NCBI GenBank assembly: GCA_038212375.1
Contig: JBBQUO010000002.1
Location: 1-45,783, forward strand
Direction: 5' to 3'
Source of the DNA: Minisyncoccia bacterium
Lineage (GTDB): Bacteria; Patescibacteriota; Minisyncoccia; Phycocordibacterales; Zambryskibacteraceae
DNA: 45,783 nt
Shown here: in pieces, positions 12,613 through 42,805 of the stretch
Layout of the letters: every line of letters starts with the position of its first letter
How positions within the stretch are numbered: the stretch's first letter is position 1
Translations under genes and position numbers: made by a program
Notes under the pieces: model-generated
Told to the model about the DNA's origin: nothing
Database searches by the model: none
The model's input: only the letters and a program-made list of their open reading frames with translations

Positions 12613-13032
12613 TTATACTAGCAAGTTTTTGATTTCTTCTCCAATTTCTTTTATTTGACCTTCGTACTCATAGTGCGTTGTAGGGAATGTTCCATACCCA
12701 TCACTCTTCATTCGAGGTATTACATGGACATGTGCATGAAAGACTACTTGTCCGGCCGCGCTACCATTATTCATATAGATATTAATTCCTTCAGCGTTTA
12801 CCCCTTCCTTTACTGCAACTGAAATCCTTTTTGCTTCCTGAAAAAGTTTTGCTACGAGTTCGTCTGGAAGAGAAAATATATCGGAATAATGCGCTCTTGG
12901 AATCACAAGTGAGTGACCAAAGTTTGCTGGCTGGATATCAACAAAGGAGAGCGTATCTCCAGTTTCCGCAATAATTTCAGCAGGGATCTCTCCTCGCACT
13001 ATTTTACAAAAAATACAGTTTTCTTCTTTCAT
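12613..13032 (-). CDS. HIT-family (histidine triad) nucleotide hydrolase
   Basis: HAHVHVIP histidine-triad motif and N-terminal CIFCKI. Confidence 0.85.
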   Translation of the reverse strand: MKEENCIFCKIVRGEIPAEIIAETGDTLSFVDIQPANFGHSLVIPRAHYSDIFSLPDELVAKLFQEAKRISVAVKEGVNAEGINIYMNNGSAAGQVVFHAHVHVIPRMKSDGYGTFPTTHYEYEGQIKEIGEEIKNLLV

Positions 13033-13058
13033 GTCCCTAGTATAACCCTAATGCTATA

Positions 13059-14783
13059 ATGTTTGCCATGTCCGTAAAATCCTATTCCGTCCGTCCTACT
13101 GTTCCAGAGGAAGCTGCGCTCGAACTTGCCTCGTATCATCCACTTCTACAGAAACTGATGCACGCTCGTGGCATCGCTACCGCACAGGCTGCAAGCAAAT
13201 TTCTCCATCCTGACTACGATCTCGATCTTCATGATCCATTTCTTCTCCTCGGTATGGATATTGCAGTCGCTCGCATTCTGCGTGCTATTGAACAGAATGA
13301 AAAAATTTTGATATACAGTGATTACGACGCTGACGGTATTCCAGGTGGAGTAGTGCTACGAGAATTTTTTGAGAAGATTCAGTACAACAGTGTTGATAAT
13401 TATATCCCACATCGTCATGACGAAGGATACGGACTTCATCTCGAAGCTGTAGAAGGATTTGAAAAGGAGGGGGTCCGTCTCATTATTACTGTAGACTGCG
13501 GAATTGTAGATGTGGCACAAGTAGTGCGCGCTCGTGAACTTGGGATGGACGTTATCATTACCGATCACCACGAACCAGGAAGTGTTCTGCCTCCCGCGAT
13601 CGCGATTATCAATCCAAAGCAGGAAAACTGCACCTACCCTGAAAAAATTCTTTGTGGATCTGGTGTCGTATATAAACTTATCCAGGCGATACTTCAAAAA
13701 AATCGTTTCGATCTTCCTGCTGGAAAAGAAAAATGGTTTCTCGATCTTGTGGGTATGGCGACGCTTTCTGATATGGTACCGCTTGTCGGAGAAAATCGCG
13801 CACTTGCATACTATGGACTGAAAGTATTACAAAAGTCTCCGCGTCCTGGGCTCCAAAGAATGTGGAAGAAGCTCGGGATTCAGCCTTATAATATTACGGA
13901 AGATGATATTGGATTTTCACTTTCTCCACGTATTAATGCTGCGTCTCGTATGGGAAAGCCGCATGATGCATTCAAACTCCTACGAACACATGATCCTGTT
14001 GAGGCAGACGAAGCAACCGAACATTTGAGTAACATAAATGACGAACGTAAAGGTGTTGTGGCATCGCTTGTCAAAGAAATTAAAAAACATCTTCGTGAAC
14101 GTGAGCTTGCCGGACCGCTCCCAAAAGTGCTGGTCGTCGGTGATCCGCTTTGGAAACCTTCTCTTCTTGGGCTCGCCGCCAATAGTGTGCAGGATGATTT
14201 TCCCCATCCTATGTTTTTTTGGGGAAGAAATGGTGAAAATCTCATCAAAGGATCCTGTCGCTCTGAAGGGCAGACGAATCTCATCGCACTTATGGAAGCT
14301 GCAAAAGATGCATTCACACAGTTTGGCGGACACAAAATGGCAGGAGGATTTGCAGTTTCATTTGAAAAAATCCACACACTTGAAGATTCCCTCAATGTTG
14401 CCTATGCATCACTTCCTGATGTCGGGAAAAAAGAAGATATATTTCTTGATGCAGAACTCCAGCTTTCTGATGTGAACTGGAATACGTATCGACATATCGA
14501 ACAGCTCGCTCCATTCGGTGTAGGAAATCCAAAGCCGCTGTTTCTGATTCGTGGTGCAGAAGTGAACGAAGTAAAATTATTCGGAAAAGAGAAAAACCAT
14601 CTCGAAGTTTCATTTGCGGGTGAACGCAAACCAATTAAAGCTATTAGCTTCTTTTCAACACCAGAAAGTTTTGCAGTGGTGCCGGAAGTAGGGAAGAAGC
14701 TGGATATCGTGGTAAGTCTTGAGAAATCTACCTTCAGAAACTTCCCCGAGCTAAGACTCCGAATTGTTGATATTATTACATAA
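13059..14783 (+). CDS. recJ: Single-stranded-DNA-specific exonuclease RecJ
   Basis: DHH-family motifs DYDADG, DCG, TDHH and GGHKMAGG. ATG 13068 is an alternative start. Confidence 0.9.
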   Translation: MFAMSVKSYSVRPTVPEEAALELASYHPLLQKLMHARGIATAQAASKFLHPDYDLDLHDPFLLLGMDIAVARILRAIEQNEKILIYSDYDADGIPGGVVLREFFEKIQYNSVDNYIPHRHDEGYGLHLEAVEGFEKEGVRLIITVDCGIVDVAQVVRARELGMDVIITDHHEPGSVLPPAIAIINPKQENCTYPEKILCGSGVVYKLIQAILQKNRFDLPAGKEKWFLDLVGMATLSDMVPLVGENRALAYYGLKVLQKSPRPGLQRMWKKLGIQPYNITEDDIGFSLSPRINAASRMGKPHDAFKLLRTHDPVEADEATEHLSNINDERKGVVASLVKEIKKHLRERELAGPLPKVLVVGDPLWKPSLLGLAANSVQDDFPHPMFFWGRNGENLIKGSCRSEGQTNLIALMEAAKDAFTQFGGHKMAGGFAVSFEKIHTLEDSLNVAYASLPDVGKKEDIFLDAELQLSDVNWNTYRHIEQLAPFGVGNPKPLFLIRGAEVNEVKLFGKEKNHLEVSFAGERKPIKAISFFSTPESFAVVPEVGKKLDIVVSLEKSTFRNFPELRLRIVDIIT

Positions 14784-15538
14784 TGAAAGCTGAAAATACT
14801 ATTTTTACTGACGGGTCGTCTCGAGGGAACCCAGGTCCTGGTGGCTGGGGTGCGATTATCGTTTTTTCTGATGAAAAAACGATAATGAATAATGAATATC
14901 GAATGACGAATAATTCAGTCCAGGAAATCGGAGGGATGGTATCTCACACTACTAATAATAGAATGGAATTAACTGCAGTTATTGAAGCGCTAACCTTTGC
15001 ATCAAAAATTGCCATTCCTCATTCGTTATTCATTATTCATTTGGATTCCAGCTATGTCATGAACGGTGCAACAAAGTGGATCTACGGTTGGCAGAAGAAC
15101 AACTGGAAGACCAGTACAAAGGCAGATGTACTCAATGTAGATTTGTGGCAGAAGCTTGCCCGAGTGCTCCCACTCCTTACGATCGAATGGAAACTCGTAA
15201 AGGGTCACTCGGGAGTACCAGCAAACGAACGTTGCGACGCTATAGCAACAAGTTTTGCAGATGGCGACAAACCTCACCTGTACAGCGGAAATCTTGATTC
15301 CTATGAAATTGATTTACACATTCCAGTATCAAAAGCTCAGGGTTCTAAACTAAAACCTAAAAGCTCTCGAGCTCCTGCATATTCATATGTAAGTCAGGTA
15401 GATGGCGTTATACAAACTCATGGTACATGGGCAGAGTGTGAGCAGAGAGTAAAAGGAGTAAAGAAAACCAAATTTAAAAAATCTATCTCTTCAGCAGACG
15501 AGAAATTTATTATTGATTCATGGAAGACTTCTCACTAA
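14783..15538 (+). CDS. rnhA: RNase HI with an internal insertion and a C-terminal hybrid-binding (Cauli_VI-like) domain
   Basis: TDGSSRGNPGPGGWG, TTNNRMEL, DSSYV and KGHSGVPANERCD match RNase HI. C-terminal YSYVSQVDGVIQTHGTWAECEQRVKGVKKTKFKK matches the RNase H1 HBD pattern. TAATG overlap with recJ. Confidence 0.85.
   Translation: MKAENTIFTDGSSRGNPGPGGWGAIIVFSDEKTIMNNEYRMTNNSVQEIGGMVSHTTNNRMELTAVIEALTFASKIAIPHSLFIIHLDSSYVMNGATKWIYGWQKNNWKTSTKADVLNVDLWQKLARVLPLLTIEWKLVKGHSGVPANERCDAIATSFADGDKPHLYSGNLDSYEIDLHIPVSKAQGSKLKPKSSRAPAYSYVSQVDGVIQTHGTWAECEQRVKGVKKTKFKKSISSADEKFIIDSWKTSH
14884..15041. repeat. 28-nt inverted repeat (26/28 complementary) with a 102-nt spacer inside rnhA; each arm is four in-phase heptads
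   Basis: Left arm aatGAATaatGAATatcGAATgacGAAT (14884-14911). Right arm ATTCctcATTCgttATTCattATTCatt (15014-15041). Mismatches at 14899/15026 and 14907/15018. Confidence 0.9.
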
Positions 15539-17034: not shown

Positions 17035-17628
17035 TTATTGAGCGTTCTTAAAATTCTCTTCGATGACTTCCCAGTTAAGGTTTGCGAGGAATGCTTCCAC
17101 ATATTTCTTCTTTTCTGAAGTAGGGTAGTCATAGACGAATGCATGTTCCCACATGTCGATACCCATGATCCATGTGAGACCGTTGAGCTGACCGAGATGC
17201 TGCTCGTCTACCCAGGCATAGACCAGTTGGTCAGTTTGTTTGTCGTAGTAGACTACTGCCCAGCCTATGCCGCGGGTTTGTGTAAGTAATTTGAAACCTT
17301 CAATCCAGTCCTTAAATGGAGCATCTTTTTCAATTACTTTCATGAGGGGAGAATTTTCTGGAAGAGGTTTTGGTCCACCGACGAGTGATGCAAAATAATG
17401 CTCGTGGTTGCGCATGCCATTAAACTCAAAACTAAATCGTCTGTGGAGTTCATTTGCAAGGTATAGATTTTTTTCTGGATCCTCGTGCATAAGCTCTGTA
17501 ATCTTGTCCATAATCATATTGGTATTTTTTACGTACCCTGAGTACAGCTTCAGATGTTCCGCGATATTTTTCGCTGATATGCCTTGTAATTCTGGAATAG
17601 CAAATATGTGTTCTTCAAATTTTTTCAT
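17035..17628 (-). CDS. Fe/Mn-family superoxide dismutase
   Basis: C-terminal GIDMWEHAFVYDY, NHEHYF and the N-terminal His/Tyr pattern. ATG 17628 preferred because the GTG 17706 extension would run into a terminator hairpin. Confidence 0.8.
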   Translation of the reverse strand: MKKFEEHIFAIPELQGISAKNIAEHLKLYSGYVKNTNMIMDKITELMHEDPEKNLYLANELHRRFSFEFNGMRNHEHYFASLVGGPKPLPENSPLMKVIEKDAPFKDWIEGFKLLTQTRGIGWAVVYYDKQTDQLVYAWVDEQHLGQLNGLTWIMGIDMWEHAFVYDYPTSEKKKYVEAFLANLNWEVIEENFKNAQ

Positions 17629-17705
17629 AGGGTGTAGTAAGGTTGTATCTTTATTATTGCTATTAATACGAGCTTTCAGTATACGGGCTAGACGTAAAAA
17701 TTTCA

Positions 17706-17733
17706 CCCCACCCTCTCAAAAGAGATGGTGGGG
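17706..17733 (-). terminator. Hairpin terminator (minus strand) after the 43-aa ORF
   Basis: CCCCACCCTCTC aaaa GAGATGGTGGGG, 11 of 12 positions paired. On the minus strand it is followed by tgaaattttta. Confidence 0.6.
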
Positions 17734-22723: not shown

Positions 22724-23083
22724 TTAATGAAAACAACGGAATACATAGAAGGTTTTATACACGACGCCTTCATTCTCGTCGTCAAAGTAGTAGTCGCCAA
22801 CAGCTTCGGCGACAGAAACTTCGCATTCATCCCATCCGATCCGGAACCCAAGGGCAAATGATCGTGATGGGCTACGCTCTGCTTCACACGAGTCCATAGC
22901 GTACTCGCCATCTGCGTCGCAACCTCCGTAACTACCGAGGTTGTAGCCTTCCCACCATTTCGAGAGCTTGTGCCCTAGTACTGGACCAATCGGTCCAGTA
23001 AACGGACAACCATGATGGTGTCCACCATCAGGCTGTTCGTTCCTGCAGTAGTAGCATAGAAGCCTCCGGCGCGTCGCGACCAT
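22724..23083 (-). CDS. Hypothetical Cys/His-rich small protein (119 aa), possible zinc-binding N-terminus
   Basis: GAGAGGTGG lies 3 nt upstream of the ATG. N-terminus CYYCRNEQPDGGHHHGC. Looks more GC-rich than its neighbours by eye. Has its own promoter and a hairpin (GGGGAG attact CTCCCC, 22699-22716) after the stop. Confidence 0.6.
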   Translation of the reverse strand: MVATRRRLLCYYCRNEQPDGGHHHGCPFTGPIGPVLGHKLSKWWEGYNLGSYGGCDADGEYAMDSCEAERSPSRSFALGFRIGWDECEVSVAEAVGDYYFDDENEGVVYKTFYVFRCFH

Positions 23084-23174: not shown

Positions 23175-23203
23175 ATTAAATCATTAATGTTTAAATCTGT
23201 CAA
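23175..23203 (-). promoter_or_regulatory. Sigma70-like promoter for the Cys/His-rich gene
   Basis: Minus strand reads TTGACA - 17 nt - TTTAAT. Predicts a 5' UTR of about 85 nt. Confidence 0.55.
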
Positions 23204-23310
23204 ATAAGCTGTAGGGTAGTATTTCTATTGCTTCTCATGGGGTTTTGGGATATTCTTGAGGGCAATTGGCAGGAGACTGCTCATTTTTGTTCAACTTTTA
23301 TTTATCAAAG

Positions 23311-23345
23311 CTAACCGCTAAAACCTAACCCCTATAAGCTAAATT
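23311..23345 (+). repeat. Five exactly 7-nt-phased CTA(A/T) heptads immediately upstream of fusA
   Basis: ctaaccg ctaaaac ctaaccc ctataag ctaaatt with CTA at 23311, 23318, 23325, 23332, 23339. ATG at 23348. Confidence 0.85.
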
Positions 23346-23347
23346 TT

Positions 23348-25501
23348 ATGGAACGAGATTATCCACTGGAAAGAGTAAGGAATTTTGGAATTGTAGCTCA
23401 CGTTGATGCAGGGAAGACCACGACATCAGAGCGTGTTCTCTATTACACTGGTGCTCAGCACAGTATTGGAGAAGTGCACGATGGAGAGACCACCACTGAC
23501 TGGATGGAACAAGAAAAAGAGCGCGGCATCACGATTACCGCGGCGGCTATTACCTGTTTCTGGTCTCCGACATATCTCGAAGCAGAATCTCGAAAGGATA
23601 AAGCAAACAAATATCGTTTCAATATCATCGACACCCCAGGTCACATCGACTTTACGGTAGAAGTGAAGCGCTCGCTTCGCGTGCTCGATGGAGCTGTCGT
23701 CGTGTTCGACGGAGTAGCAGGAGTAGAACCTCAGTCAGAAACCAACTGGCGCTACGCGGAAGAGGCAAGTGTTCCACGTATTTGCTTTATCAATAAGCTC
23801 GATCGAACAGGTGCATCATTTGAGCGTTCATATAAATCTATTCTTGATCGTCTTTCAAAAAAGGCAGTCCGTGTACAGATTCCAATCGGGGAAGAGGGAA
23901 ATCACGAAGGAGTTATTGACCTTCTCCAGATGAAGGCGTATTACTTTGAAGGAAACATGGGAGACAAGATTATTCTCAAAGAAATCCCTGACGCATTTAA
24001 GGCAGATGCAGAAAAGTATCATGCAGAGCTCGTAGAGAAAATTGTAGAGCACGATGATGCTATGATGAACGATTTCCTTGAAGGAAAAATCCCAGCATAT
24101 GCTGACCTCAAGAAAATTCTCCGAAAGGCGGTTATTGCAAATGAAATTTTCCCTGTGTATGCAGGATCCGCACTTAAGAACAAAGGAGTACAGATCATTC
24201 TCGACGGAGTGGTGGACTATCTCCCGTCTCCACTTGATATCAAAGATGTGGTTGGAGTAGATCCTCGTACAGGAGACGAGATTACTCGTGCACCATCTGA
24301 TAGCGCACCATTTTCAGCGCTTGCATTCAAACTGCAAGCAGATCCATTCGTAGGACAGCTCACATTCTTCCGCGTATATTCAGGAACTATTGAATCAGGA
24401 AGTTATATTTACAACTCAACCACTGGCGAGAGAGAGCGTCTCGGACGCATCGTGCGCCTTCAGGCAAACGATCGTGAAGAAGTGAAGAAAGTATTTGCGG
24501 GAGAAATTGCAGCAGCGGTAGGACTCAAAAATGCAAAGACTTCTCATACCTTCTGCGACGAAAATAACCCTATCGTACTTGATCAAATCAAATTCCCTGA
24601 ACCGGTTATTTCACTTCGTATTGAGCCGAAGACAAAAGCAGACCAGGAAAAGATGGGTATGGCACTCAAGCGTCTCTCAGATGAAGATCCAACATTTAGA
24701 ATTAAATCCGACTCTGACACTGGTGAAACGGTGATTATGGGAATGGGAGAACTTCACCTTGAAATTCTCGTCGATCGTATGAAGCGTGAATTCGGCGTAG
24801 AAGCAAATGTCGGCAAACCTCAAGTATCGTACAAAGAAACGATCACTGGTGAGGCAGAGGTGGAAAACAAATACATCAAACAGACGGGAGGAAAGGGTCA
24901 GTATGGACACGTCCGTATCAGTATCAAACCGCTCCCACACTATGATCCAGAAGAAAAAGTTCCAAAGAATGCTCACCGAGAACCTGGATACGAATTTATC
25001 GATTCAATCAAAGGAGGGGTTATTCCACAAGAATTTATTCCAGCTGTTGAAAAGGGAGTTCGTGAATCTATGGATCGCGGAGTAGTGGCAGGATTCAAGA
25101 TGACTGATATTTCATGTGAACTTACATTCGGAAGTTACCACGATGTGGACTCTTCAGAAATCGCTTACAAGATCGCAGCATCACAGGCATTCCAAGAAGC
25201 AGCAAAGAAGGCAAGACCTGTTATTCTCGAACCTATTATGAAGATCGAGGTAGTAGTTCCAGACAAGTTCATGGGAGACATTACGGGAAATATCTCAGGA
25301 AAGCGTGGACAGATCGATGGTATGGATGAACGTGGAGATCTGAAAGTTATTCGTGCACAAGTACCTCTCTCAGAAATGTTCGGATATGTGACCGCACTTC
25401 GCTCAATGACCGAGGGGAGAGGGTCATCAACGATGGAATTCGATCACTATGCGATCGTACCTCCAAACGTAGCTCAGGCTATTGTAGAAAGTAGAAAGTA
25501 A
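23348..25501 (+). CDS. fusA: Elongation factor G
   Basis: AHVDAGKTT, DTPGHIDF, NKLD and a full-length EF-G domain order. Confidence 0.95.
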   Translation: MERDYPLERVRNFGIVAHVDAGKTTTSERVLYYTGAQHSIGEVHDGETTTDWMEQEKERGITITAAAITCFWSPTYLEAESRKDKANKYRFNIIDTPGHIDFTVEVKRSLRVLDGAVVVFDGVAGVEPQSETNWRYAEEASVPRICFINKLDRTGASFERSYKSILDRLSKKAVRVQIPIGEEGNHEGVIDLLQMKAYYFEGNMGDKIILKEIPDAFKADAEKYHAELVEKIVEHDDAMMNDFLEGKIPAYADLKKILRKAVIANEIFPVYAGSALKNKGVQIILDGVVDYLPSPLDIKDVVGVDPRTGDEITRAPSDSAPFSALAFKLQADPFVGQLTFFRVYSGTIESGSYIYNSTTGERERLGRIVRLQANDREEVKKVFAGEIAAAVGLKNAKTSHTFCDENNPIVLDQIKFPEPVISLRIEPKTKADQEKMGMALKRLSDEDPTFRIKSDSDTGETVIMGMGELHLEILVDRMKREFGVEANVGKPQVSYKETITGEAEVENKYIKQTGGKGQYGHVRISIKPLPHYDPEEKVPKNAHREPGYEFIDSIKGGVIPQEFIPAVEKGVRESMDRGVVAGFKMTDISCELTFGSYHDVDSSEIAYKIAASQAFQEAAKKARPVILEPIMKIEVVVPDKFMGDITGNISGKRGQIDGMDERGDLKVIRAQVPLSEMFGYVTALRSMTEGRGSSTMEFDHYAIVPPNVAQAIVESRK

Positions 25502-25528
25502 TCAGTAAATAGTTTTTAGTAAAGATAC

Positions 25529-27145: not shown

Positions 27146-27193
27146 GAATACCGAATAGTGAATAGGGAATAAAGCTCAATTCACATTCATTCA
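27146..27193 (+). repeat. Heptad array GAATA x4 followed by ATTC x3, in the tuf-rpsJ spacer
   Basis: gaatacc gaatagt gaatagg gaataaa starting at 27146, 27153, 27160, 27167. ATTC at 27179, 27185, 27189. rpsJ ATG at 27199. Confidence 0.85.
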
Positions 27194-36081: not shown

Positions 36082-36717
36082 ATGGATACCAACGAAACAC
36101 AAACAAACACAGAAGAAGCGGTAGTTGTAACTGAAAACGCAGTTGTTGCTGATGGTGCAACAGTAGCTCCATCTGCTGCACCATTAGGAGCTCCTCGCAG
36201 ATTCTCTCGCGACGCAGGTCGTGATCAAAAGAAGAATCCACGTCGTGGACCAAAGAAAGATGCTCGTGCGAAGTCAGAATTTGATCAGAAGACCGTTTCT
36301 ATTCGTCGCGTAACCCGTGTTACTTCTGGAGGTCGTCGATTTACCTTTTCTGCGACTATTGTTGCAGGAAATCGTAAGGGTATGGTCGGAGTTGGACAAG
36401 GAAAGGCAGGAGATACTCCACTTGCTATCGACAAAGCACTTCGCGATGCTAAGAAAAATATGATCCAAGTGAAAACTACCAAGGACATGTCTATACCTTA
36501 CGAGGTTGAAGCTAAGTACGGTGGATCTCGCGTAAAGATTATGCCAGCTCCTGGACGAGGTATTCTCGCAGGAAGTTCAGTGCGAACCGTTATTGAACTT
36601 GCAGGACTCACTTCTATTAATGCGAAGATTCTATCTGGAACAAAGAACCGAGCAAACAATGCGAAGGTTGCAGTCGAGGCTCTCAGAAAACTTTCACAAC
36701 TCACATCACGAAAATAA
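36082..36717 (+). CDS. rpsE: 30S ribosomal protein S5, with a ~45-aa N-terminal extension
   Basis: VRRVTRVTSGGRRFTFSATIVAGNRKGMVGVGQGKA. Confidence 0.95.
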   Translation: MDTNETQTNTEEAVVVTENAVVADGATVAPSAAPLGAPRRFSRDAGRDQKKNPRRGPKKDARAKSEFDQKTVSIRRVTRVTSGGRRFTFSATIVAGNRKGMVGVGQGKAGDTPLAIDKALRDAKKNMIQVKTTKDMSIPYEVEAKYGGSRVKIMPAPGRGILAGSSVRTVIELAGLTSINAKILSGTKNRANNAKVAVEALRKLSQLTSRK

Positions 36718-36728
36718 TTTTTACTACC

Positions 36729-37166
36729 ATGCAAAGTCACACCATCTCACGAAAAACTCCACACTATAAGTCAATGCAAGTTGGCCGAGGGGGAACACGT
36801 GGAAAAACTTCTGGACGAGGAACTAAGGGGCAGAATGCTCGTGCAGGTCGCAAGAAGCGTCCAGAAATTCGCGACACTATTAAGCGTCTTCCAAAACTTC
36901 GAGGACGAGGAAAAAATAGTAATAAAACTATCGAACTTGAAGTTCGAGCAGTAAATCTCTCAAAACTCTCAGTATTTTCTGCAGGTCAAACTATATCTCC
37001 TCAATCACTCGTAGCTCAAAAGATTGTAAGCCGTGTACATGGACTTGATCCGAAAATCAAAATCCTTGGGTCTGGAGATGTTACTATTGCTCTCACTTTT
37101 GTATCGTGTTCAGTATCAGAAAGTGCACGTAAGAAAATTGAAGCTGCTGGTGGTAAAATTGAATAA
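36729..37166 (+). CDS. rplO: 50S ribosomal protein L15
   Basis: GRGGTRGKTSGRGTKGQNARAG. Follows rpsE after only 11 nt, leaving no room for an L30 gene. Confidence 0.95.
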   Translation: MQSHTISRKTPHYKSMQVGRGGTRGKTSGRGTKGQNARAGRKKRPEIRDTIKRLPKLRGRGKNSNKTIELEVRAVNLSKLSVFSAGQTISPQSLVAQKIVSRVHGLDPKIKILGSGDVTIALTFVSCSVSESARKKIEAAGGKIE

Positions 37167-37174
37167 ACTACTAT

Positions 37175-38443
37175 ATGACCTTTCTCGATAAAGTTAGATT
37201 GGTATGGGGGGATACAACACTAAGAAAGAGAATTCTTTTCGCTCTCGGTGCTCTCGTTGTCTTTAGATTGCTTGCGACGGTTCCTGTTCCTGGAATCGAT
37301 ACTACTCGTCTTGCAAGTTTCTTTTCTGGAAACCAACTTCTTGGGCTCCTCAATCTTTTTTCAGGTGGAGGATTTTCTAGTCTTTCAATCATTATGCTTG
37401 GAGTGAGTCCGTACATCACTTCATCTATTATTATGCAGCTTCTGACGGTGATCTTCCCAAGTCTGAAGGCGATGAACCAAGAAGAGGGAGATGCTGGACG
37501 CAGAAAGTTTACTCAGTACTCTCGTATGATTACGGTGCCTCTCGCACTGATCCAAGGTTTTGCATTTCTCACACTTCTCGTTCGTCAGGGAGTTATCAAT
37601 CCACTCACTCCGATGCAGATGGGCACCAATCTCCTTATCATTACTGCGGGCGCACTCCTCGTTATGTGGCTCGGTGAACTCATTACTGAGTTTGGTGTTG
37701 GAAATGGAACTTCACTTATTATTTTTGCGGGTATCATAACCCGTCTCCCTCAGTCTATTTCTCAGCTGTATTATTCATTTGACGCTTCTCAAATCCCGCT
37801 TTACGGCGCGTTTACTGTTGCAGCTATCGCTATTATTTTTGCGGTCGTTATTATTACGGAGGCTGAACGACCAATCCCTATTACCTACGCAAAGCAGGTA
37901 CGAGGTTCTAAGGTGTACGGAGGTGTTTCTACCTACCTTCCACTACGAGTAAACCAAGCTGGAGTAGTGCCAATTATCTTTGCACTTTCTATTCTTTTGT
38001 TCCCACAGATGATTTTTAGTTTTCTTGCAAGTGTTAATAACGTTATGGTTAAGAAGGTTTCTGCATTTGTACTAGCCACTCTTGCAAATCAGTGGTTTTA
38101 CGCTGGTGCATACTTTGTACTCGTATTTCTCTTTACGTACTTCTACACCGCAGTAACATTCGATCCGGATCAAATTTCTGAGAATCTTCAGAAAAGTGGA
38201 GCCTTTATTCCAGGGGTACGACCAGGTCAACCAACATCGGAATATATTGCAAAGATTCTCACTCGTCTTACCTTAGTTGGAGCTCTCTTCCTTGGAGTTA
38301 TTGCAGTTCTCCCTCTTGTGGTAAAGGGTATTACCGGTATTGCATCACTTTCAATCGGAGGTACCGCCCTCCTTATCGTAGTGTCAGTAGTTATCGACCT
38401 CATTAAGAAGATCGAAGCTCAAATCTCAGCAAGAGAATACTAA
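37175..38443 (+). CDS. secY: Preprotein translocase subunit SecY
   Basis: 10-TM SecY pattern and operon position. Confidence 0.95.
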   Translation: MTFLDKVRLVWGDTTLRKRILFALGALVVFRLLATVPVPGIDTTRLASFFSGNQLLGLLNLFSGGGFSSLSIIMLGVSPYITSSIIMQLLTVIFPSLKAMNQEEGDAGRRKFTQYSRMITVPLALIQGFAFLTLLVRQGVINPLTPMQMGTNLLIITAGALLVMWLGELITEFGVGNGTSLIIFAGIITRLPQSISQLYYSFDASQIPLYGAFTVAAIAIIFAVVIITEAERPIPITYAKQVRGSKVYGGVSTYLPLRVNQAGVVPIIFALSILLFPQMIFSFLASVNNVMVKKVSAFVLATLANQWFYAGAYFVLVFLFTYFYTAVTFDPDQISENLQKSGAFIPGVRPGQPTSEYIAKILTRLTLVGALFLGVIAVLPLVVKGITGIASLSIGGTALLIVVSVVIDLIKKIEAQISAREY

Positions 38444-38452
38444 ACAAGTGTT

Positions 38453-38480
38453 TAGTTCGTAGGGGATTAGCTTTTAGCTT
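38453..38480 (+). repeat. TAG array (spacing 7, 8, 7 nt), including the tandem TTAGCTT TTAGCTT, just downstream of the secY stop
   Basis: TAG at 38453, 38460, 38468, 38475. TTAGCTT at 38467 and 38474. Confidence 0.75.
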
Positions 38481-38481
38481 C

Positions 38482-38511
38482 AAAAAACATCACAGGCATG
38501 TGATGTTTTTT
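38482..38511 (+). terminator. Rho-independent terminator between secY and adk
   Basis: AAAAAACATCACA ggca TGTGATGTTTTTT. Confidence 0.8.
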
Positions 38512-38523
38512 GAAATGTTTTTA

Positions 38524-38572
38524 CTAGCAATTTAACTCTAAACGCTATAAGCTATCACCTATACGCTAATCT
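38524..38572 (+). repeat. CTA heptad array (six CTA in one 7-nt phase) upstream of adk
   Basis: CTA at 38524, 38538, 38545, 38552, 38559, 38566: ctagcaa tttaact ctaaacg ctataag ctatcac ctatacg ctaatct. ATG at 38579. Confidence 0.85.
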
Positions 38573-38578
38573 CAATTT

Positions 38579-39172
38579 ATGAAACCTCATGCTTTTATTT
38601 TTATAGGTCGATCAGGATGTGGAAAAGGTACCCAGGTACAACTTCTCCGCCCCGTCATCGAAAAAGAGAGCATTCCTGTTCTCTATATTGAAACGGGAGA
38701 TATGTTTCGCAACTTCATCAAAGGAGAAGGCTATAGCGCTACACTTTCTCATAATGTATACGAGACCGATACTCGTCAGCCAGACTTTCTTGCGTGCTAT
38801 ATGTGGTCAACCTTTCTCGTCAATGATTTTAAGGGAGATTCTCATGTATTTTTTGATGGCACACCGCGCTCAATCACTGAAGCAAGACTCCTCGATACTG
38901 CCCTGAGATTTTATCAGTTTGAAAAGATTCATGTAATATACCTTAACGTTAGTCGTGCTTGGTCGGAAAAGCATCTACTTTCAAGGGGTCGTTCTGACGA
39001 TGCAAATCTTTCGAAAATTGATACAAGACTTAACTGGTTTGATACCGACGTTGTCCCGGCAATTGACTATTTCAAACAATCTGACAAACATTTTATCGAA
39101 GTCGATGGTGAGCAAAGTGTTGAAGCAGTGCACTCAGATATTGTAAAAGCACTTTCGATTGTTTCTGCATAA
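38579..39172 (+). CDS. adk: Adenylate kinase-like nucleoside monophosphate kinase (divergent)
   Basis: P-loop GRSGCGKGTQ, DGTPRS and the position after secY. Divergent from canonical Adk. Confidence 0.7.
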   Translation: MKPHAFIFIGRSGCGKGTQVQLLRPVIEKESIPVLYIETGDMFRNFIKGEGYSATLSHNVYETDTRQPDFLACYMWSTFLVNDFKGDSHVFFDGTPRSITEARLLDTALRFYQFEKIHVIYLNVSRAWSEKHLLSRGRSDDANLSKIDTRLNWFDTDVVPAIDYFKQSDKHFIEVDGEQSVEAVHSDIVKALSIVSA

Positions 39173-39960: not shown

Positions 39961-39975
39961 TGATATACTTTTAAC

Positions 39976-41766
39976 ATGAAATTTTCTGAATCGTACGATC
40001 CATCAAAAGAAGAGGCTCAGGGTGGAGTTTTGGTAAACGAAGGAGAAATAAGTGGAGAATATCCACCAATTAATATTGAAGATGAGTCAGAGGAAGATCT
40101 GCCGAATGAGCAAATCGACTCGAAGCGTTCTATTTACGGAGGTGAAGCGGAAGAGGGTTTTGAATCTTCGACTGAGCTTGCTCCTTCAAGTAAAAAGATT
40201 CAATCAGAGATTCAGGCTGGCATCGATACCTTAAGAGAAAAAATCGAAAAGCATACGGTTGAAAACAAAAGTGCACAAGAAGGAGAGAGGGTCAACATAA
40301 AAGAAAGAGTTTCCAAAGTGGCTCACGGAGAAGAGCAGATTGAAAGCCGAGAAGTTTCTGAGATGAATAAGCGGGTGCTGTATGAAGATGAACGAGCATC
40401 AGTATTCAATAGAATTACACCACTTGAAAAAGCTGTAGAAAATCTGAATCACACCATCACACTTGAGTCCGATGAGTTGGCATACTTGAGGAGTAAGCTA
40501 AGTGCTCTACAAGGGACGGGGAATGCATCAGAGATTGGAACTATCCAAGCAGAAGTTCAAGAGTTAGAGGAAAGGGTCCATGAAAACACAATCTTGCTTC
40601 AAAAAAGAAAGCAGTCATTGAAGTCTGTGAGTACATTTGAAGAAAAGTTATGGGGCGATGTACCAGATGACTTGTCGAATAACACCAAGGCTCTCTTTTC
40701 AAGTATTAAACAAGTAAAAAGCGCAGAAGACCTGCTCGCAGTATTTGATACATGGGGAGCGCTCCCTGGAGTTGATAGTTTAAGTAAGCCTCTTACTGAT
40801 CGGGAAACAGTAGAACACTTCCTAGAAAGTATGAATTCAGAAAGTGAAGATGAGGTAACACTAAAAGCATCTAAAATTTTTGAAAATCCCGTTCTTAGGG
40901 ATTTAGCGCTGGGTCTTCCAAGGAAACAAAAACATGAAGAGGTTGAAACGCTCTCAACAGAGCCAGAAATAAGACCATTTTCGCAGCAACCTTCTCAAGA
41001 AGAGCTAGAAATACAGCAGCAAAAAGAACTGAGAAGTTTGTATCAAGAGGAAAAAGATCTAACGAAATCAAAAGAAATTCTTTCTTCAAATATATTTCGT
41101 TTGGCTCCATTTCTTATGAAAGTGACGAAGGGGGGAAGAGAGAAGCTCTCAGTATTAAAACGGGTGGGATTGAGTCCTAATGGTGTACGAACTGGCGGGT
41201 CTGGTCTTGAATTTGCTCGAATGTTTAAGCTCAAAGCTGTTAAGGAAAAAAAGGCCCTCATCCGTGGTCACTCTGACAAAAATTTTTCTCATGATGTTGA
41301 TAAACGATTTTGGTCAGAGGATCAAATACGCCAAAATAATTTTCTTACTACGAATGATGTACGTATGGAAAGAATGAGAGACAAAGAACAGCTTGAACAT
41401 AAAGATACAAGACAAAAAAACCGGATCGCCATTGGTGAATCACTAAAGAAACAAGCTGGGAAATCCTCAATATTTGTAAAGTTATTTAGTAGATTGTTTA
41501 AGTCGCAAGAGCAAGATTCATCAATAACTCTAGATGGTATTATTATGCCAAAGAGACACGAAGTATTTGAGGATAAGGTAGCTGAAGATACTGCAGCAAA
41601 AACTTCCTTCGACACAGATAGTGCTGAAAGATCTGGTGCAGAAGAGGATCCAATTGTAGAGATATCCGAAAATCAAGAAAAAAGAAAGATACAAAAACAG
41701 CAAATTAAAAAAGTAAAAACTGACGGAAAACCTAAGGCAAGAACTAGAAAAAAGAGCAAACTATAA
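39976..41766 (+). CDS. Hypothetical highly charged protein (596 aa): acidic N-terminus, coiled-coil-like middle, Lys/Arg-rich C-terminus
   Basis: Long uninterrupted ORF tightly packed between map and ndk. No TM segment, signal peptide or recognisable motif. Confidence 0.6.
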   Translation: MKFSESYDPSKEEAQGGVLVNEGEISGEYPPINIEDESEEDLPNEQIDSKRSIYGGEAEEGFESSTELAPSSKKIQSEIQAGIDTLREKIEKHTVENKSAQEGERVNIKERVSKVAHGEEQIESREVSEMNKRVLYEDERASVFNRITPLEKAVENLNHTITLESDELAYLRSKLSALQGTGNASEIGTIQAEVQELEERVHENTILLQKRKQSLKSVSTFEEKLWGDVPDDLSNNTKALFSSIKQVKSAEDLLAVFDTWGALPGVDSLSKPLTDRETVEHFLESMNSESEDEVTLKASKIFENPVLRDLALGLPRKQKHEEVETLSTEPEIRPFSQQPSQEELEIQQQKELRSLYQEEKDLTKSKEILSSNIFRLAPFLMKVTKGGREKLSVLKRVGLSPNGVRTGGSGLEFARMFKLKAVKEKKALIRGHSDKNFSHDVDKRFWSEDQIRQNNFLTTNDVRMERMRDKEQLEHKDTRQKNRIAIGESLKKQAGKSSIFVKLFSRLFKSQEQDSSITLDGIIMPKRHEVFEDKVAEDTAAKTSFDTDSAERSGAEEDPIVEISENQEKRKIQKQQIKKVKTDGKPKARTRKKSKL

Positions 41767-42793: not shown

Positions 42794-42799
42794 TATAAT
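42794..42799 (+). promoter_or_regulatory. TATAAT box 6 nt upstream of the ATG of the next gene (possible leaderless mRNA)
   Basis: agaTATAATcagtatATG, with no SD. Confidence 0.3.
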
Positions 42800-42805
42800 C
42801 AGTAT

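What the first reader, a model, noticed from the sequence alone, without database searches (positions are those of the whole stretch)
38453..38578. secY-adk spacer: TAG array, terminator, then a complementary CTA heptad array
After the secY stop, TAG occurs at 38453, 38460, 38468 and 38475, including the tandem TTAGCTT TTAGCTT. A strong terminator follows at 38482-38511. Then CTA occurs at 38524, 38538, 38545, 38552, 38559 and 38566, all in one 7-nt phase, ending 13 nt before the adk ATG. The two arrays carry reverse-complementary motifs and can pair across the terminator in more than one register: GATTAGC 38465-38471 with GCTAATC 38565-38571, and TAGCTT 38475-38480 with AAGCTA 38549-38554. 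This layout suggests a switch between termination and read-through/translation of adk, or a repeated-triplet binding platform. Both ideas are speculative. The (UAG-N4) geometry upstream of the terminator is the one recognised by HutP-type antiterminators.
Basis: partly seen in the sequence, partly recalled or inferred. Interest (0 to 1): 0.65.

Follow-up and report, generated by a model that had tools for sequence, protein, structure and literature searches.

The report
Inverted seven-base repeats around a terminator
The secY-adk spacer of this candidate-phyla-radiation bacterium holds an ordinary transcription terminator wrapped by two mirror-image arrays of degenerate 7-base repeats, one example of a repeat class common in this lineage and known elsewhere, and not a regulated on/off switch.

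Summary
TAG occurs at 38453/60/68/75, a hairpin with a T-run lies at 38479-38514, and CTA occurs at 38524 and then five times in strict 7-nt phase (38538-38566), ending before the adk ATG at 38579. Shuffles give about zero such arrays.

The switch interpretation is not supported. The two arrays pair with each other outside the terminator stem, and that stem keeps pair probability 0.93-0.98 in every context. There is no second UAG site for a HutP-type protein.

The arrays belong to a wider class. The window (Ca. Zambryskibacteria) has other 7-nt-periodic arrays: CTA x5 before fusA, GTAR x6 after fusA, and a GAAT/ATTC hairpin between tuf and rpsJ. In relatives period 7 dominates, arrays are mostly intergenic, and heptad-rich spacers fold into long hairpins with lineage-specific units. 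The nearest relative keeps the terminator but lacks the arrays.

Metagenome CTA arrays with a TAG partner show TAG-then-CTA order in 13 loci against 1, and the first TAG is often the flanking gene's stop codon.

Best reading: slippage-derived inverted heptanucleotide repeats form a passive outer stem and stop-codon pad around a terminator. Closest precedents are the Xanthomonas GGGAATC and Beggiatoaceae TAACTGA heptamers. Function is untested.

The parts
38441..38443 (+). secY stop codon TAA. The first TAG (38453) is an in-frame back-up stop four codons later.
   Evidence: ORF 37175-38443; frame table.
38452..38481 (+). Left arm: degenerate heptad array with TAG at 38453, 38460, 38468 and 38475 (spacing 7, 8, 7), including the tandem TTAGCTT TTAGCTT.
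   Evidence: Sequence. Pairs with the right arm with mean probability 0.73. Arm-arm duplex -24.1 kcal/mol against -11.3 for full shuffles and -17.8 for core-kept shuffles. The TAGs cover reading frames 0 and 1 only.
38479..38514 (+). Intrinsic-terminator-like hairpin. The order is A6, then a core stem with loop GGCA (38495-38498), then T6. It is symmetric, so it could in principle act on both strands.
   Evidence: Consensus scan: 16 pairs, 4 G-C, loop 4, T-rich tail. Stem pair probability 0.93-0.98 in five transcript contexts. The closest relative L081 has an equivalent A6-stem-T6 hairpin at the same place.
38524..38527 (+). Isolated CTAG in phase with the right-hand array, two heptads upstream of it.
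   Evidence: Sequence; pattern match with 2 mismatches.
38536..38572 (+). Right arm: five heptads CTCTAAA CGCTATA AGCTATC ACCTATA CGCTAAT, with CTA at 38538/45/52/59/66. On the bottom strand this gives TAG in all three frames.
   Evidence: Found independently of motif by lag-7 autocorrelation (38532-38569). Alignable with the adk-upstream arrays of L084, L083 and L001 (z 5.4-6.0, shared CTATAAGCTA).
38567..38572 (+). TAATCT, a TAnnnT hexamer exactly 6 nt before the adk ATG. It is a candidate -10 box of a leaderless adk promoter (inference).
   Evidence: In this clade TAnnnT peaks sharply at exactly 6 nt before ATG: 73 of 344 genes with long upstream spacers, against a background of about 12. 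TATAAT/TATACT gives 28 against about 1. No TG extension or -35 match here, and the consensus scan found no + strand promoter.
38579..39172 (+). adk (adenylate kinase, 197 aa). It has no Shine-Dalgarno sequence.
   Evidence: PF00406.
23311..23341 (+). Second CTA-N4 x5 array of the window, ending 6 nt before the fusA ATG (23348). It has no convincing inverted partner.
   Evidence: The fold of 23190-23360 is not better than shuffles (z -0.37). Orthologous arrays with changed unit number occur in L210 and L207; the array is absent in L208 and replaced by CAATT/AATTG heptads in L209.
25484..25521 (+). Heptad array GTAGAAA GTAGAAA GTAATCA GTAAATA GTTTTTA GTAAAGA spanning the fusA stop codon. A terminator-like hairpin follows.
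27146..27192 (+). tuf-rpsJ spacer: GAATnnn x4 followed by an inverted ATTC arm. The hairpin leaves only 9 nt of the 56-nt spacer unpaired.
   Evidence: (-11.3 kcal/mol, z -1.9).

Best explanation
The spacer is an operon-punctuation module. It holds an intrinsic terminator that ends the S10-spc-secY transcript, followed by the start region of adk. The module is wrapped by two inverted arrays of degenerate 7-nt repeats, TAG-N4 on the left and CTA-N4 on the right.

These arrays are a local member of a class of intergenic heptanucleotide repeats. The class is abundant in this Parcubacteria/Zambryskibacteria lineage and is known, as more perfect repeats, in Xanthomonas, Nostoc and Beggiatoaceae.

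Proposed origin (inferred): slipped-strand replication of 7-nt units, seeded next to or on a stop codon where extra copies cost nothing, together with copying between the two arms of the hairpin. That copying would keep the arms complementary.

Proposed action (inferred): passive, not regulatory. In RNA that reads through the terminator, the arms zip into an outer stem of about 22 bp nested around it. The stem starts 8 nt after the secY stop and ends 6 nt before the adk AUG. The arms also place stop codons in front of the hairpin, in two frames on the top strand and all three on the bottom strand, so that ribosomes cannot melt it. They supply a G-poor leader or promoter-proximal stretch without a Shine-Dalgarno sequence. 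Its last unit, TAATCT, sits where this clade puts the -10 box of leaderless genes.

Shown here: the anatomy, its non-randomness, the nesting, the lack of a competing fold, the recurrence in the window and in relatives, the polarity, and the stop-codon anchoring. Inferred: the origin by slippage and every functional consequence.
For: 1. The arrays are non-random.
2. The arms are nested outside the terminator. The stem keeps probability 0.93-0.98 in every context, so no alternative fold exists.
3. The window holds other 7-nt arrays with different cores: five arrays at lag 7 against 0.00 in shuffles, and none at lags 8-12.
4. In 86 related loci plus the window, lag-7 arrays number 94, against 6 at lag 8 and 1 at lag 10. 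Of 68 merged arrays, 53 are intergenic, although only 17% of the DNA is non-coding.
5. Heptad-rich co-directional spacers fold into spacer-spanning hairpins. In 12 of 21, at most 20% of the spacer lies outside the widest helix. Median energy z is -3.7, against -1.7 for heptad-poor spacers. The complementary units are lineage-specific: TAG/CTA, GTAT/ATAC, CGAAATT, CAATT/AATTG.
6. The arrays behave like simple-sequence repeats. They are present in L001, L020, L024, L052, L054 and L083, partial in L084, and absent in the closest relative L081 and in L086. The terminator recurs in L081 and in many other relatives, and a -10 box close to the adk ATG recurs in many. Unit number changes between near relatives: the fusA array has 5, 4, 4 and about 1 units, and L020 differs from L024.
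7. A metagenome scan found CTA heptad arrays in contigs of 21-71% G+C. Where a TAG x3 partner lies within 120 nt, the order is TAG then CTA in 13 loci against 1. The first TAG is often exactly the stop codon of a long flanking ORF: L122 on both sides, and also L129, L134, L173 and L185.
8. Literature. Heptamers are the most over-represented long simple repeats in prokaryotes, and polymerase slippage has been proposed as the cause (Mrazek 2007, as cited in PMC4679880 and PMC4692102). Xanthomonas GGGAATC repeats are 89-93% intergenic, lie on average 28 nt from the upstream ORF, form 70-75 convergent inverted pairs, and vary between close relatives.
Against: - The arrays are degenerate. Only the CTA/TAG core and weak flanks are shared between units, unlike classic near-perfect simple repeats.
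- The adk-upstream array is alignable across four lineages with a conserved CTATAAGCTA block. This suggests constraint rather than fast neutral turnover.
- Top-strand TAGs cover only frames 0 and 1, so the three-frame stop-pad idea fails on the strand where it should matter most.
- About half of the arrays in relatives, and 87 of 105 scored metagenome arrays, have no inverted partner. Pairing therefore cannot be the whole story.
- Seven of nine TAG/CTA-type spacers fold better in the sense direction, through G-U pairs. This hints at RNA-level selection, meaning a more active role than 'passive'.
- No transcript data exist for this organism.
Confidence: 0.5

Rival explanations
1. The arrays are a binding platform for an oligomeric protein that reads one unit per 7 nt. 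The protein could act on RNA: ribosomal protein S1, a cold-shock protein or another single-strand binder on (CUA-N4)n just upstream of start codons, replacing the missing Shine-Dalgarno interaction or regulating it. It could instead act on double-stranded DNA: a ribbon-helix-helix repressor of the omega type polymerising on 7-bp units over the promoter.
For: - CTA-sense arrays end 4-10 nt before ATG at many genes that lack a Shine-Dalgarno sequence: adk and fusA in the window, and genes in L001, L014, L020, L024, L052, L054, L207 and L210.
- The core is conserved while the spacers vary, and a CTATAAGCTA block is conserved across lineages.
- The same proposal was made for TAACTGA repeats, which also precede fusA and ribosomal protein genes without ribosome-binding sites (PMC4679880).
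- Omega protein binds 7-10 contiguous heptads in direct or inverted orientation (PMC9499535 and PMC4627068, listed; the binding details are from my own knowledge).
Against: - Several unrelated heptad cores coexist in the same window and clade, so no single sequence-specific reader explains them.
- Array orientation relative to the ATG is not fixed. In L048 and L055 a TAG-sense array lies upstream of a leaderless -10 box.
- The distance to the ATG varies from 4 to 10 nt.
- The closest relative expresses adk without any array.
- None of the 20 window proteins scanned matched a Pfam family with an evident heptad-reading candidate; four of them had no Pfam match at all. The window is only a small part of the genome.
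Confidence: 0.2
2. The outer stem is an active RNA device on read-through polycistronic mRNA. It brings the secY stop (8 nt from the stem) next to the adk AUG (6 nt from the stem), so that terminating ribosomes re-initiate or unmask the start. Alternatively, it is an RNase III site that cuts adk free with a very short leader, in an organism that translates leaderless or leader-poor mRNAs.
For: - Operon-internal genes here have 5-17 nt G-poor spacers and no Shine-Dalgarno sequence, as expected for termination-reinitiation.
- The two zipped spacers of the window leave only 9 nt unpaired, against 24-39 nt in shuffles.
- An alternative register sequesters the AUG.
- Seven of nine TAG/CTA-type spacers fold better in sense, through G-U pairs. 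For example, the CTA-to-TTA changes in L083 keep pairing with UAG.
Against: - Across all 147 co-directional spacers of 45-200 nt, end-to-end zipping is not more frequent than in shuffles (33% against 29%, p = 0.06).
- Over all heptad hairpins there is no sense-strand bias (10 of 17, p = 0.46).
- A strong terminator sits inside the stem, so few transcripts should carry both arms.
- Many arrays are unpaired.
- adk may have its own leaderless promoter.
Confidence: 0.15
3. One reading: a regulated switch between termination and read-through, with a HutP-like protein bound to the (UAG-N4) array or alternative arm pairing deciding whether the terminator forms.
For: Four UAG triplets with 4-5 nt spacers lie immediately 5' of a terminator stem. 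The arms pair in more than one register.
Against: - No fold competes with the terminator, which keeps probability 0.93-0.98.
- The CTA arm is made after the terminator.
- HutP needs a second XAG site 3' of the stem on the same strand. That site is absent.
- There is no Rfam match.
- None of the 20 window proteins scanned against Pfam matched a HutP family.
- The arrays are missing in the closest relative, which keeps the terminator.
- Identical architecture occurs with non-UAG heptads.
Confidence: 0.05

Closest known systems
Intergenic heptameric simple-sequence repeats of Xanthomonas (GGGAATC) and Nostoc (GGGGAYT), including convergent inverted pairs (Rehm et al. 2015, PMC4692102)
   Same: 7-nt tandem units. 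Overwhelmingly intergenic and close to the end of the upstream ORF. Frequent pairs in convergent orientation, able to form stem-loops or cruciforms. Length and sequence vary between close relatives. Function unknown.
   Different: Those repeats are near-perfect, G-rich and can form quadruplexes. Here the units are degenerate, A/T-rich and share only a TAG/CTA core. They flank an intrinsic terminator and abut a start codon. The host is a candidate-phyla-radiation bacterium.
TAACTGA direct repeats of marine Beggiatoaceae, some Cyanobacteria and Bacteroidetes (MacGregor 2015, PMC4679880)
   Same: Heptamer direct repeats of 2-6 copies ending within a few nt of start codons. [quoted passage not shown] The unit carries stop codons in the forward orientation.
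   Different: That case has one fixed heptamer per genome and almost no inverted pairs (one indirect repeat in 170 sets). Here there are several heptad families, many of them in inverted pairs.
STRR heptanucleotide repeats of heterocystous cyanobacteria (Calothrix PCC 7601; cited as ref. 39 in PMC4692102; details from my own knowledge)
   Same: Tandem heptanucleotides dispersed in intergenic DNA.
   Different: Different units and near-perfect copies. Not tested here.
HutP / hut terminator of Bacillus subtilis (PMC2425495)
   Same: UAG triplets separated by 4 nt just 5' of a terminator stem.
   Different: HutP uses two XAG sites on the same strand on both sides of the G-C stem, and binding disrupts that stem. 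Here the 3' array is the complement (CUA) and pairs with the 5' array outside the stem. No hutP gene was seen.
Omega (ribbon-helix-helix) heptad operators and parS of pSM19035 (PMC9499535, PMC4627068)
   Same: Arrays of contiguous 7-bp units in direct and inverted orientation over promoters.
   Different: That system has a fixed consensus WATCACW, is plasmid-borne and has a cognate protein encoded alongside. Here the cores are diverse and no cognate protein was found.
REP/BIME/REPIN-type extragenic palindromes (my own knowledge)
   Same: Intergenic inverted repeats right after stop codons that form hairpins and can act as terminators or RNA stabilisers.
   Different: REP arms are unique 20-40 nt sequences spread by a RAYT transposase, not internally 7-nt periodic arrays.

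Membership tests
HutP-type antiterminator target | Site I: three or more XAG triplets with 4-nt spacers, single-stranded, 5' of the terminator stem | tested here: met
   UAG at 38453, 38460, 38468 and 38475, with spacers of 4, 5 and 4 nt. The last one ends 1 nt before the stem.
HutP-type antiterminator target | Site II: a second XAG-rich region on the same RNA strand, 3' of the G-C-rich stem segment (about 17-nt linker) | tested here: not met
   The downstream array is CUA-N4. Only one UAG (38525) follows the stem. Requirement taken from PMC2425495.
HutP-type antiterminator target | Binding sites flank or overlap the stem, so that occupancy disrupts the terminator | tested here: not met
   Arm pairing is nested outside the stem. 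Stem pair probability is 0.93-0.98 with or without the arms.
HutP-type antiterminator target | A hutP gene in the genome, classically just upstream of the terminator | tested here: inconclusive
   The upstream gene is secY. None of the 20 window proteins scanned against Pfam matched a HutP family. The rest of the genome is not available.
Intergenic heptanucleotide simple-sequence repeats (LSSR / GGGAATC / TAACTGA / STRR kind) | Four or more head-to-tail units of 7 nt | tested here: met
   Five CTA units in strict phase and four TAG units. Detected without a motif by lag-7 autocorrelation.
Intergenic heptanucleotide simple-sequence repeats (LSSR / GGGAATC / TAACTGA / STRR kind) | Perfect or near-perfect identity between units | tested here: not met
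   Per-phase conservation in 38532-38569 is 1.00, 0.83, 0.50, 0.80, 0.60, 0.60 and 1.00. Only the C, T and A phases are close to invariant. TRF did not report the adk array.
Intergenic heptanucleotide simple-sequence repeats (LSSR / GGGAATC / TAACTGA / STRR kind) | Strong preference for intergenic DNA next to ORF ends | tested here: met
   None of the 25 strict CTA/TAG arrays lies inside a long ORF. Of 68 lag-7 arrays, 53 are intergenic, against 17% non-coding DNA.
Intergenic heptanucleotide simple-sequence repeats (LSSR / GGGAATC / TAACTGA / STRR kind) | Convergent inverted pairs able to form a stem-loop | tested here: met
   Metagenome polarity of 13 loci against 1.
Intergenic heptanucleotide simple-sequence repeats (LSSR / GGGAATC / TAACTGA / STRR kind) | Unit number and presence vary between close relatives | tested here: met
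   The fusA array has 5 units in the window, 4 in L210, 4 in L207 and about 1 in L208. L020 has 4 CTA units and L024 has 5. The arrays are absent in L081.
Intrinsic (Rho-independent) terminator | G+C-containing hairpin followed by a T-run, downstream of a stop codon | tested here: met
   38479-38514, 16 pairs, T-rich tail. Whole-spacer fold z = -6.0. An equivalent hairpin is present in L081 and in many other relatives. Actual termination is not testable with these tools.
Omega-type ribbon-helix-helix heptad operator | One conserved heptad consensus, recognised by a cognate protein encoded nearby | tested here: not met
   At least four different heptad cores occur in one window. None of the 20 proteins scanned matched a ribbon-helix-helix family. 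Small ORFs were not scanned exhaustively.
Known RNA families (Rfam 15) | Match at gathering score | tested here: not met
   No match at gathering score in the whole window. The best E-value in 38350-38650 is 0.08, for unrelated families.

The most novel reading that the evidence does not exclude
Heptad-repeat hairpins would be a functional punctuation device of bacteria that lack Shine-Dalgarno sequences and rely on leaderless mRNAs. Their TAG-first polarity would stop ribosomes in any frame before the hairpin on both strands. The zipped stem would hand terminating ribosomes, or an RNase III cut, directly to the next start codon. Unpaired CUA-N4 arrays would be the landing site of a protein that reads one unit per 7 nt and replaces the Shine-Dalgarno interaction.
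Probability: 0.15. Interest if true: 0.75.

Novelty: new variant of a known kind. Interest (0 to 1): 0.45.

Why it matters
If the best reading holds, this spacer is not a new regulatory switch.

The evidence extends the poorly understood class of bacterial heptanucleotide repeats to the candidate phyla radiation. It also adds three observations that I did not find in the papers I read:
- The arrays can be degenerate, with only a 3-nt core kept.
- In this lineage they typically occur as complementary arms of hairpins that span the whole spacer.
- TAG/CTA pairs have a strong TAG-first polarity anchored on stop codons, across unrelated bacteria.

With the sharp TAnnnT-N6-ATG signal, these points make gene-boundary logic in Parcubacteria testable. 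That logic covers leaderless promoters, the absence of Shine-Dalgarno sequences, and hairpin punctuation.

Tried and rejected
- Transcript evidence. Only DNA metagenome runs hold the window. They confirm the sequence without variants. RNA runs from the study of relative L001 are tiny and hold none of it.
- Known RNA families: none.
- Close relatives for covariation. The nearest Adk is 73% identical and the nearest SecY 77%, so base-pair covariation of one orthologous structure could not be done. I compared architectures instead.
- 'All spacers bridge stop to start': rejected clade-wide (33% against 29% in shuffles, p = 0.06). It holds only for heptad-rich spacers.
- 'G-rich arm near the stop, C-rich arm near the start': only a weak trend (16 to 11 and 10 to 5).
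- Three-frame stop pads: complete on the bottom strand, but only two frames on the top strand in this spacer.
- CTA as part of a fixed -10 box: rejected, because the distance from the last CTA to the ATG varies from 4 to 10 nt.
- Pairing beyond the cores. Arm duplexes beat core-kept shuffles in all 8 cases, but weakly each time (z -0.5 to -3.4). Shared flanking preferences of the unit could explain this.
- General sense-strand (RNA-level) bias of the hairpins: not significant.
- A consensus sigma-70 promoter on the + strand between the terminator and adk: none found.
Full report
**Observation.**
- secY (37175-38443) ends with TAA.
- TAG occurs at 38453, 38460, 38468 and 38475, spaced 7, 8 and 7 nt, and includes the tandem TTAGCTT TTAGCTT.
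- A hairpin with a T-run lies at 38479-38514. It has 16 pairs, 4 of them G-C, and loop GGCA.
- CTA occurs at 38524 and then five times in strict 7-nt phase at 38538-38566.
- adk starts at 38579.
- The quoted complementary heptamers are exact.

The 4-unit CTA-N4 pattern has 4 matches in the window against 0.00 in 100 dinucleotide shuffles. The 5-unit pattern with up to 2 mismatches has 7 matches against 0.06. All matches fall at two places only.

**Context.** SecY relatives place the window in Candidatus Zambryskibacteria (Parcubacteria/Paceibacterota, candidate phyla radiation). The best SecY identity is 77%. The gene order is:
- type IV pilus genes, tpiA, pgk, a HIT gene, recJ, rnhA, comEC and sod;
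- then rpsL-rpsG-fusA-tuf and the S10-spc ribosomal protein genes;
- then secY, adk, map, an unknown 596-aa gene, ndk and a beta-CASP RNase.

Most genes here, including every ribosomal-protein and translation gene, have no Shine-Dalgarno sequence; a few minus-strand genes are preceded by G-rich stretches. Operon-internal spacers are 5-17 nt and G-poor, with 9% G in 333 short spacers.

**Structure.** The spacer folds to -43.4 kcal/mol (z = -6.0). The terminator hairpin sits inside a second, imperfect stem of about 22 pairs made by the TAG arm and the CTA arm.
- The arm-arm duplex alone is -24.1 kcal/mol. Full shuffles give -11.3, and shuffles that keep the TAG/CTA cores give -17.8.
- The outer stem starts 8 nt after the secY stop and ends 6 nt before the adk AUG.
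- A register shifted by 14 nt (two units) lies 1.6 kcal/mol higher and covers the AUG.

The decisive point for the switch idea is that the two helices are nested, not alternative. The terminator stem keeps a mean pair probability of 0.93-0.98 in five transcript contexts, including RNA that ends at 38514, before the CTA arm exists. No sequence can act as an antiterminator. Rfam has no match.

**The motif is not unique to this spacer.**
- A second CTA-N4 x5 array ends 6 nt before the fusA ATG (23311-23341). It has no convincing partner.
- A motif-free scan for 7-nt periodicity finds five arrays in the window, against 0.00 in shuffles and none at periods 8-12.
- These are the adk array and GTAR x6 across the fusA stop, followed by a terminator.
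- They also include GAATnnn x4 with an inverted ATTC arm that fills the 56-nt tuf-rpsJ spacer as a hairpin (-11.3 kcal/mol, 9 nt left unpaired).
- The last two form a GAAT/ATTC pair inside the RNase H ORF.

Several different cores therefore share the 7-nt period and the inverted layout.

**Orthologous spacers.** The secY-adk spacer ranges from 8 to more than 2000 nt in relatives.
- Many relatives carry the same layout, with TAG heptads after the stop and CTA heptads ending 4-10 nt before the ATG: L001, L020, L024, L054 and L083.
- L052 and L014 use CTAG units. L048 has the reverse order. L055 has only TTTAGGN x4.
- L006 and L015 use GTAT/ATAC and AAAGTT/AACTTT units.
- The closest relative (Adk 73%, L081/L082) keeps an A6-stem-T6 terminator and a TGgTATAAC box but has no arrays.
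- L086 has a 27-nt spacer with TGtTATACT-N6-ATG.
- The window's CTA array is alignable with those of L084, L083 and L001 (z 5.4-6.0), sharing CTATAAGCTA.
- The fusA array is orthologous in L210 and L207 with a changed unit number. It is almost gone in L208 and is replaced by CAATT/AATTG inverted heptads in L209.

The arrays are thus old enough to align, yet gained, lost and resized like simple repeats. What recurs instead at this junction, including in relatives without arrays, is a terminator hairpin and a -10 box close to the adk ATG.

**Clade-wide statistics.**
- In 86 related loci plus the window (778 kb), period-7 arrays number 94. Period 8 gives 6, period 9 gives 13 and period 10 gives 1.
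- Of 68 merged arrays, 53 are intergenic, although only 17% of the DNA is non-coding.
- None of the 25 strict CTA/TAG arrays lies in a long ORF.
- Among co-directional spacers of 45-200 nt, the 21 heptad-rich ones are mostly zipped from end to end. In 12 of 21, at most 20% lies outside the widest helix. Median energy z is -3.7. The 105 heptad-poor ones are not zipped, with z -1.7.
- Zipping is not a general rule of all spacers.
- Over all heptad hairpins there is no sense-strand bias (10 of 17, p = 0.46). Seven of the nine TAG/CTA-type spacers do fold better in sense, through G-U pairs. This is a hint only.

**Leaderless promoters.** In these loci TAnnnT peaks at exactly 6 nt before the ATG. 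The count is 73 of 344 genes with long upstream spacers, against about 12 at neighbouring offsets. TATAAT/TATACT gives 28 against about 1. Window examples are TATACT-N6-ATG before the HIT gene (13032, minus strand), TATACT-N6-ATG before 39976, and TATAAT-N6-ATG before 42806. The last CTA unit of the adk array gives TAATCT at exactly this position (38567-38572). It is a weak box with no TG extension or -35 match. I treat a leaderless adk promoter as plausible, not shown.

**Beyond this lineage.**
Most of these are near-perfect simple repeats.
- Of 105 non-CTAG arrays far enough from contig ends, 87 had no partner.
- Sixteen arrays, in 13 loci, had a TAG x3 partner upstream. One had it downstream.
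- Several of the paired elements enclose a G+C hairpin with a T-run, for example L122.
- The first TAG is often exactly the stop codon of a long flanking ORF: L122 on both sides (507 and 603 codons), and also L129, L134, L173 and L185.

The TAG-then-CTA order reads the same on both strands. Whichever gene runs into the element therefore meets TAG units first.

**Literature.**
- Heptamers are the most over-represented long simple repeats in prokaryotes. This has been ascribed to polymerase slippage (Mrazek 2007, as cited in PMC4679880 and PMC4692102).
- Xanthomonas GGGAATC repeats are 89-93% intergenic and lie on average 28 nt from the upstream ORF. They form 70-75 convergent inverted pairs and vary between close relatives.
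- TAACTGA repeats of Beggiatoaceae end a few nt before start codons, including fusA and ribosomal protein genes, where ribosome-binding sites are rare. S1, Csp or CsrA were proposed as readers.
- HutP needs two XAG-rich sites on one strand flanking the G-C stem.

**Interpretation.** I commit, at about 0.5, to the following. The spacer is a terminator plus start-region module wrapped by slippage-derived inverted heptanucleotide repeats. The repeats make a passive outer stem and stop-codon pad. It is not a switch.

Shown: the anatomy, the non-randomness, the nesting without competition, the recurrence with different cores, the lability, the polarity and the stop-codon anchoring. Inferred: the origin by slippage and arm-to-arm copying, and any effect on termination, ribosome exclusion or adk expression.

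Points against this reading:
- The units are degenerate and only the core is kept.
- A block is conserved across lineages.
- Top-strand TAGs cover only two frames.
- Many arrays are unpaired.

**Novelty.** This is a new variant of a known but functionally unexplained kind, the intergenic heptanucleotide repeats. No RNA data exist for this organism or its relatives in the runs I could reach, so every functional statement remains to be tested.

Noticed in passing
window 13033-13044 (minus strand, before the HIT gene ATG at 13032), 39964-39975 (before 39976), 42794-42805 (before 42806); loci L001-L086: TAnnnT, often TATAAT or TATACT, sits exactly 6 nt upstream of the ATG in 73 of 344 genes with long upstream spacers, and in 82 of 614 with short ones. 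This is a sharp single-offset peak and implies widespread leaderless mRNAs in these Parcubacteria.
   Followed up: partly
L009, L010, L011, L012, L014, L019, L025, L026, L029, L034, L039, L044, L050, L052, L076 (for example L014:2096-2130): A conserved spacer motif of about 26 nt, TAG-TTCGAC(A/T)nGCTCACTA(T/C)AA(A/G)TA, lies between a TAG stop codon and the next ATG. It recurs in successive operon-internal spacers of ribosomal protein genes in many relatives. It is not present in the window, where only TAGTTCG at 38453 resembles it. Its CTCACTATA part resembles a T7-type promoter core, probably by coincidence.
   Followed up: partly
window, all gene starts (for example 29116, 31236, 36729, 37175): Nearly all genes lack a Shine-Dalgarno sequence. 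Operon-internal spacers are 5-17 nt, 9% G, and usually TAA...ATG, which suggests termination-reinitiation. A few minus-strand genes (22724-23083, 17035-17706) do have GAGGTGG-like sequences upstream.
   Followed up: partly
window 14874-14918 and 15005-15048: An inverted pair of 7-nt-periodic arrays (GAATnnn / nnnATTC) lies inside the RNase H coding region (PF00075 match over residues 5-157). Heptad arrays are therefore not strictly intergenic.
   Followed up: partly
window 13033-13058: Only 26 nt separate the divergent start codons of the HIT gene (minus strand) and recJ (plus strand). Both promoters must overlap the start region. TATACT-N6-ATG serves the HIT gene. TATAAT overlaps the first recJ ATG and lies 7 nt before a second ATG at 13068.
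   Followed up: no
window 1-45783: No Rfam family reaches its gathering score anywhere in a 45.8-kb window that holds the str, S10 and spc operons. None of the known ribosomal-protein leader RNAs is detectable.
   Followed up: no
window 39976-41766; L081, L084, L085, L086: A large protein (596 aa here) rich in charged low-complexity sequence has no Pfam match. A Pfam-less gene of 470-643 aa holds the same place between map and ndk in the relatives, and here it is preceded by TATACT-N6-ATG.
   Followed up: no
window 36082-37166: rpsE is followed directly by rplO, with no rpmD (L30) gene between them. The same holds in L083-L086. This fits the known loss of L30 in candidate-phyla-radiation bacteria (my own knowledge).
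   Followed up: no
window 22724-23083 (minus strand): A 119-aa ORF without a Pfam match sits between rpsG and fusA on the opposite strand, in an 818-nt gap that relatives fill with only about 160 nt.
   Followed up: no
L093 (metagenome contig Ga0209511_1000033): One 2-kb stretch carries many different heptad arrays side by side (CTATAAA, CTAAGCC/CTAAACC, TTGACAG). This shows that some genomes accumulate several heptamer families in one intergenic region.
   Followed up: no
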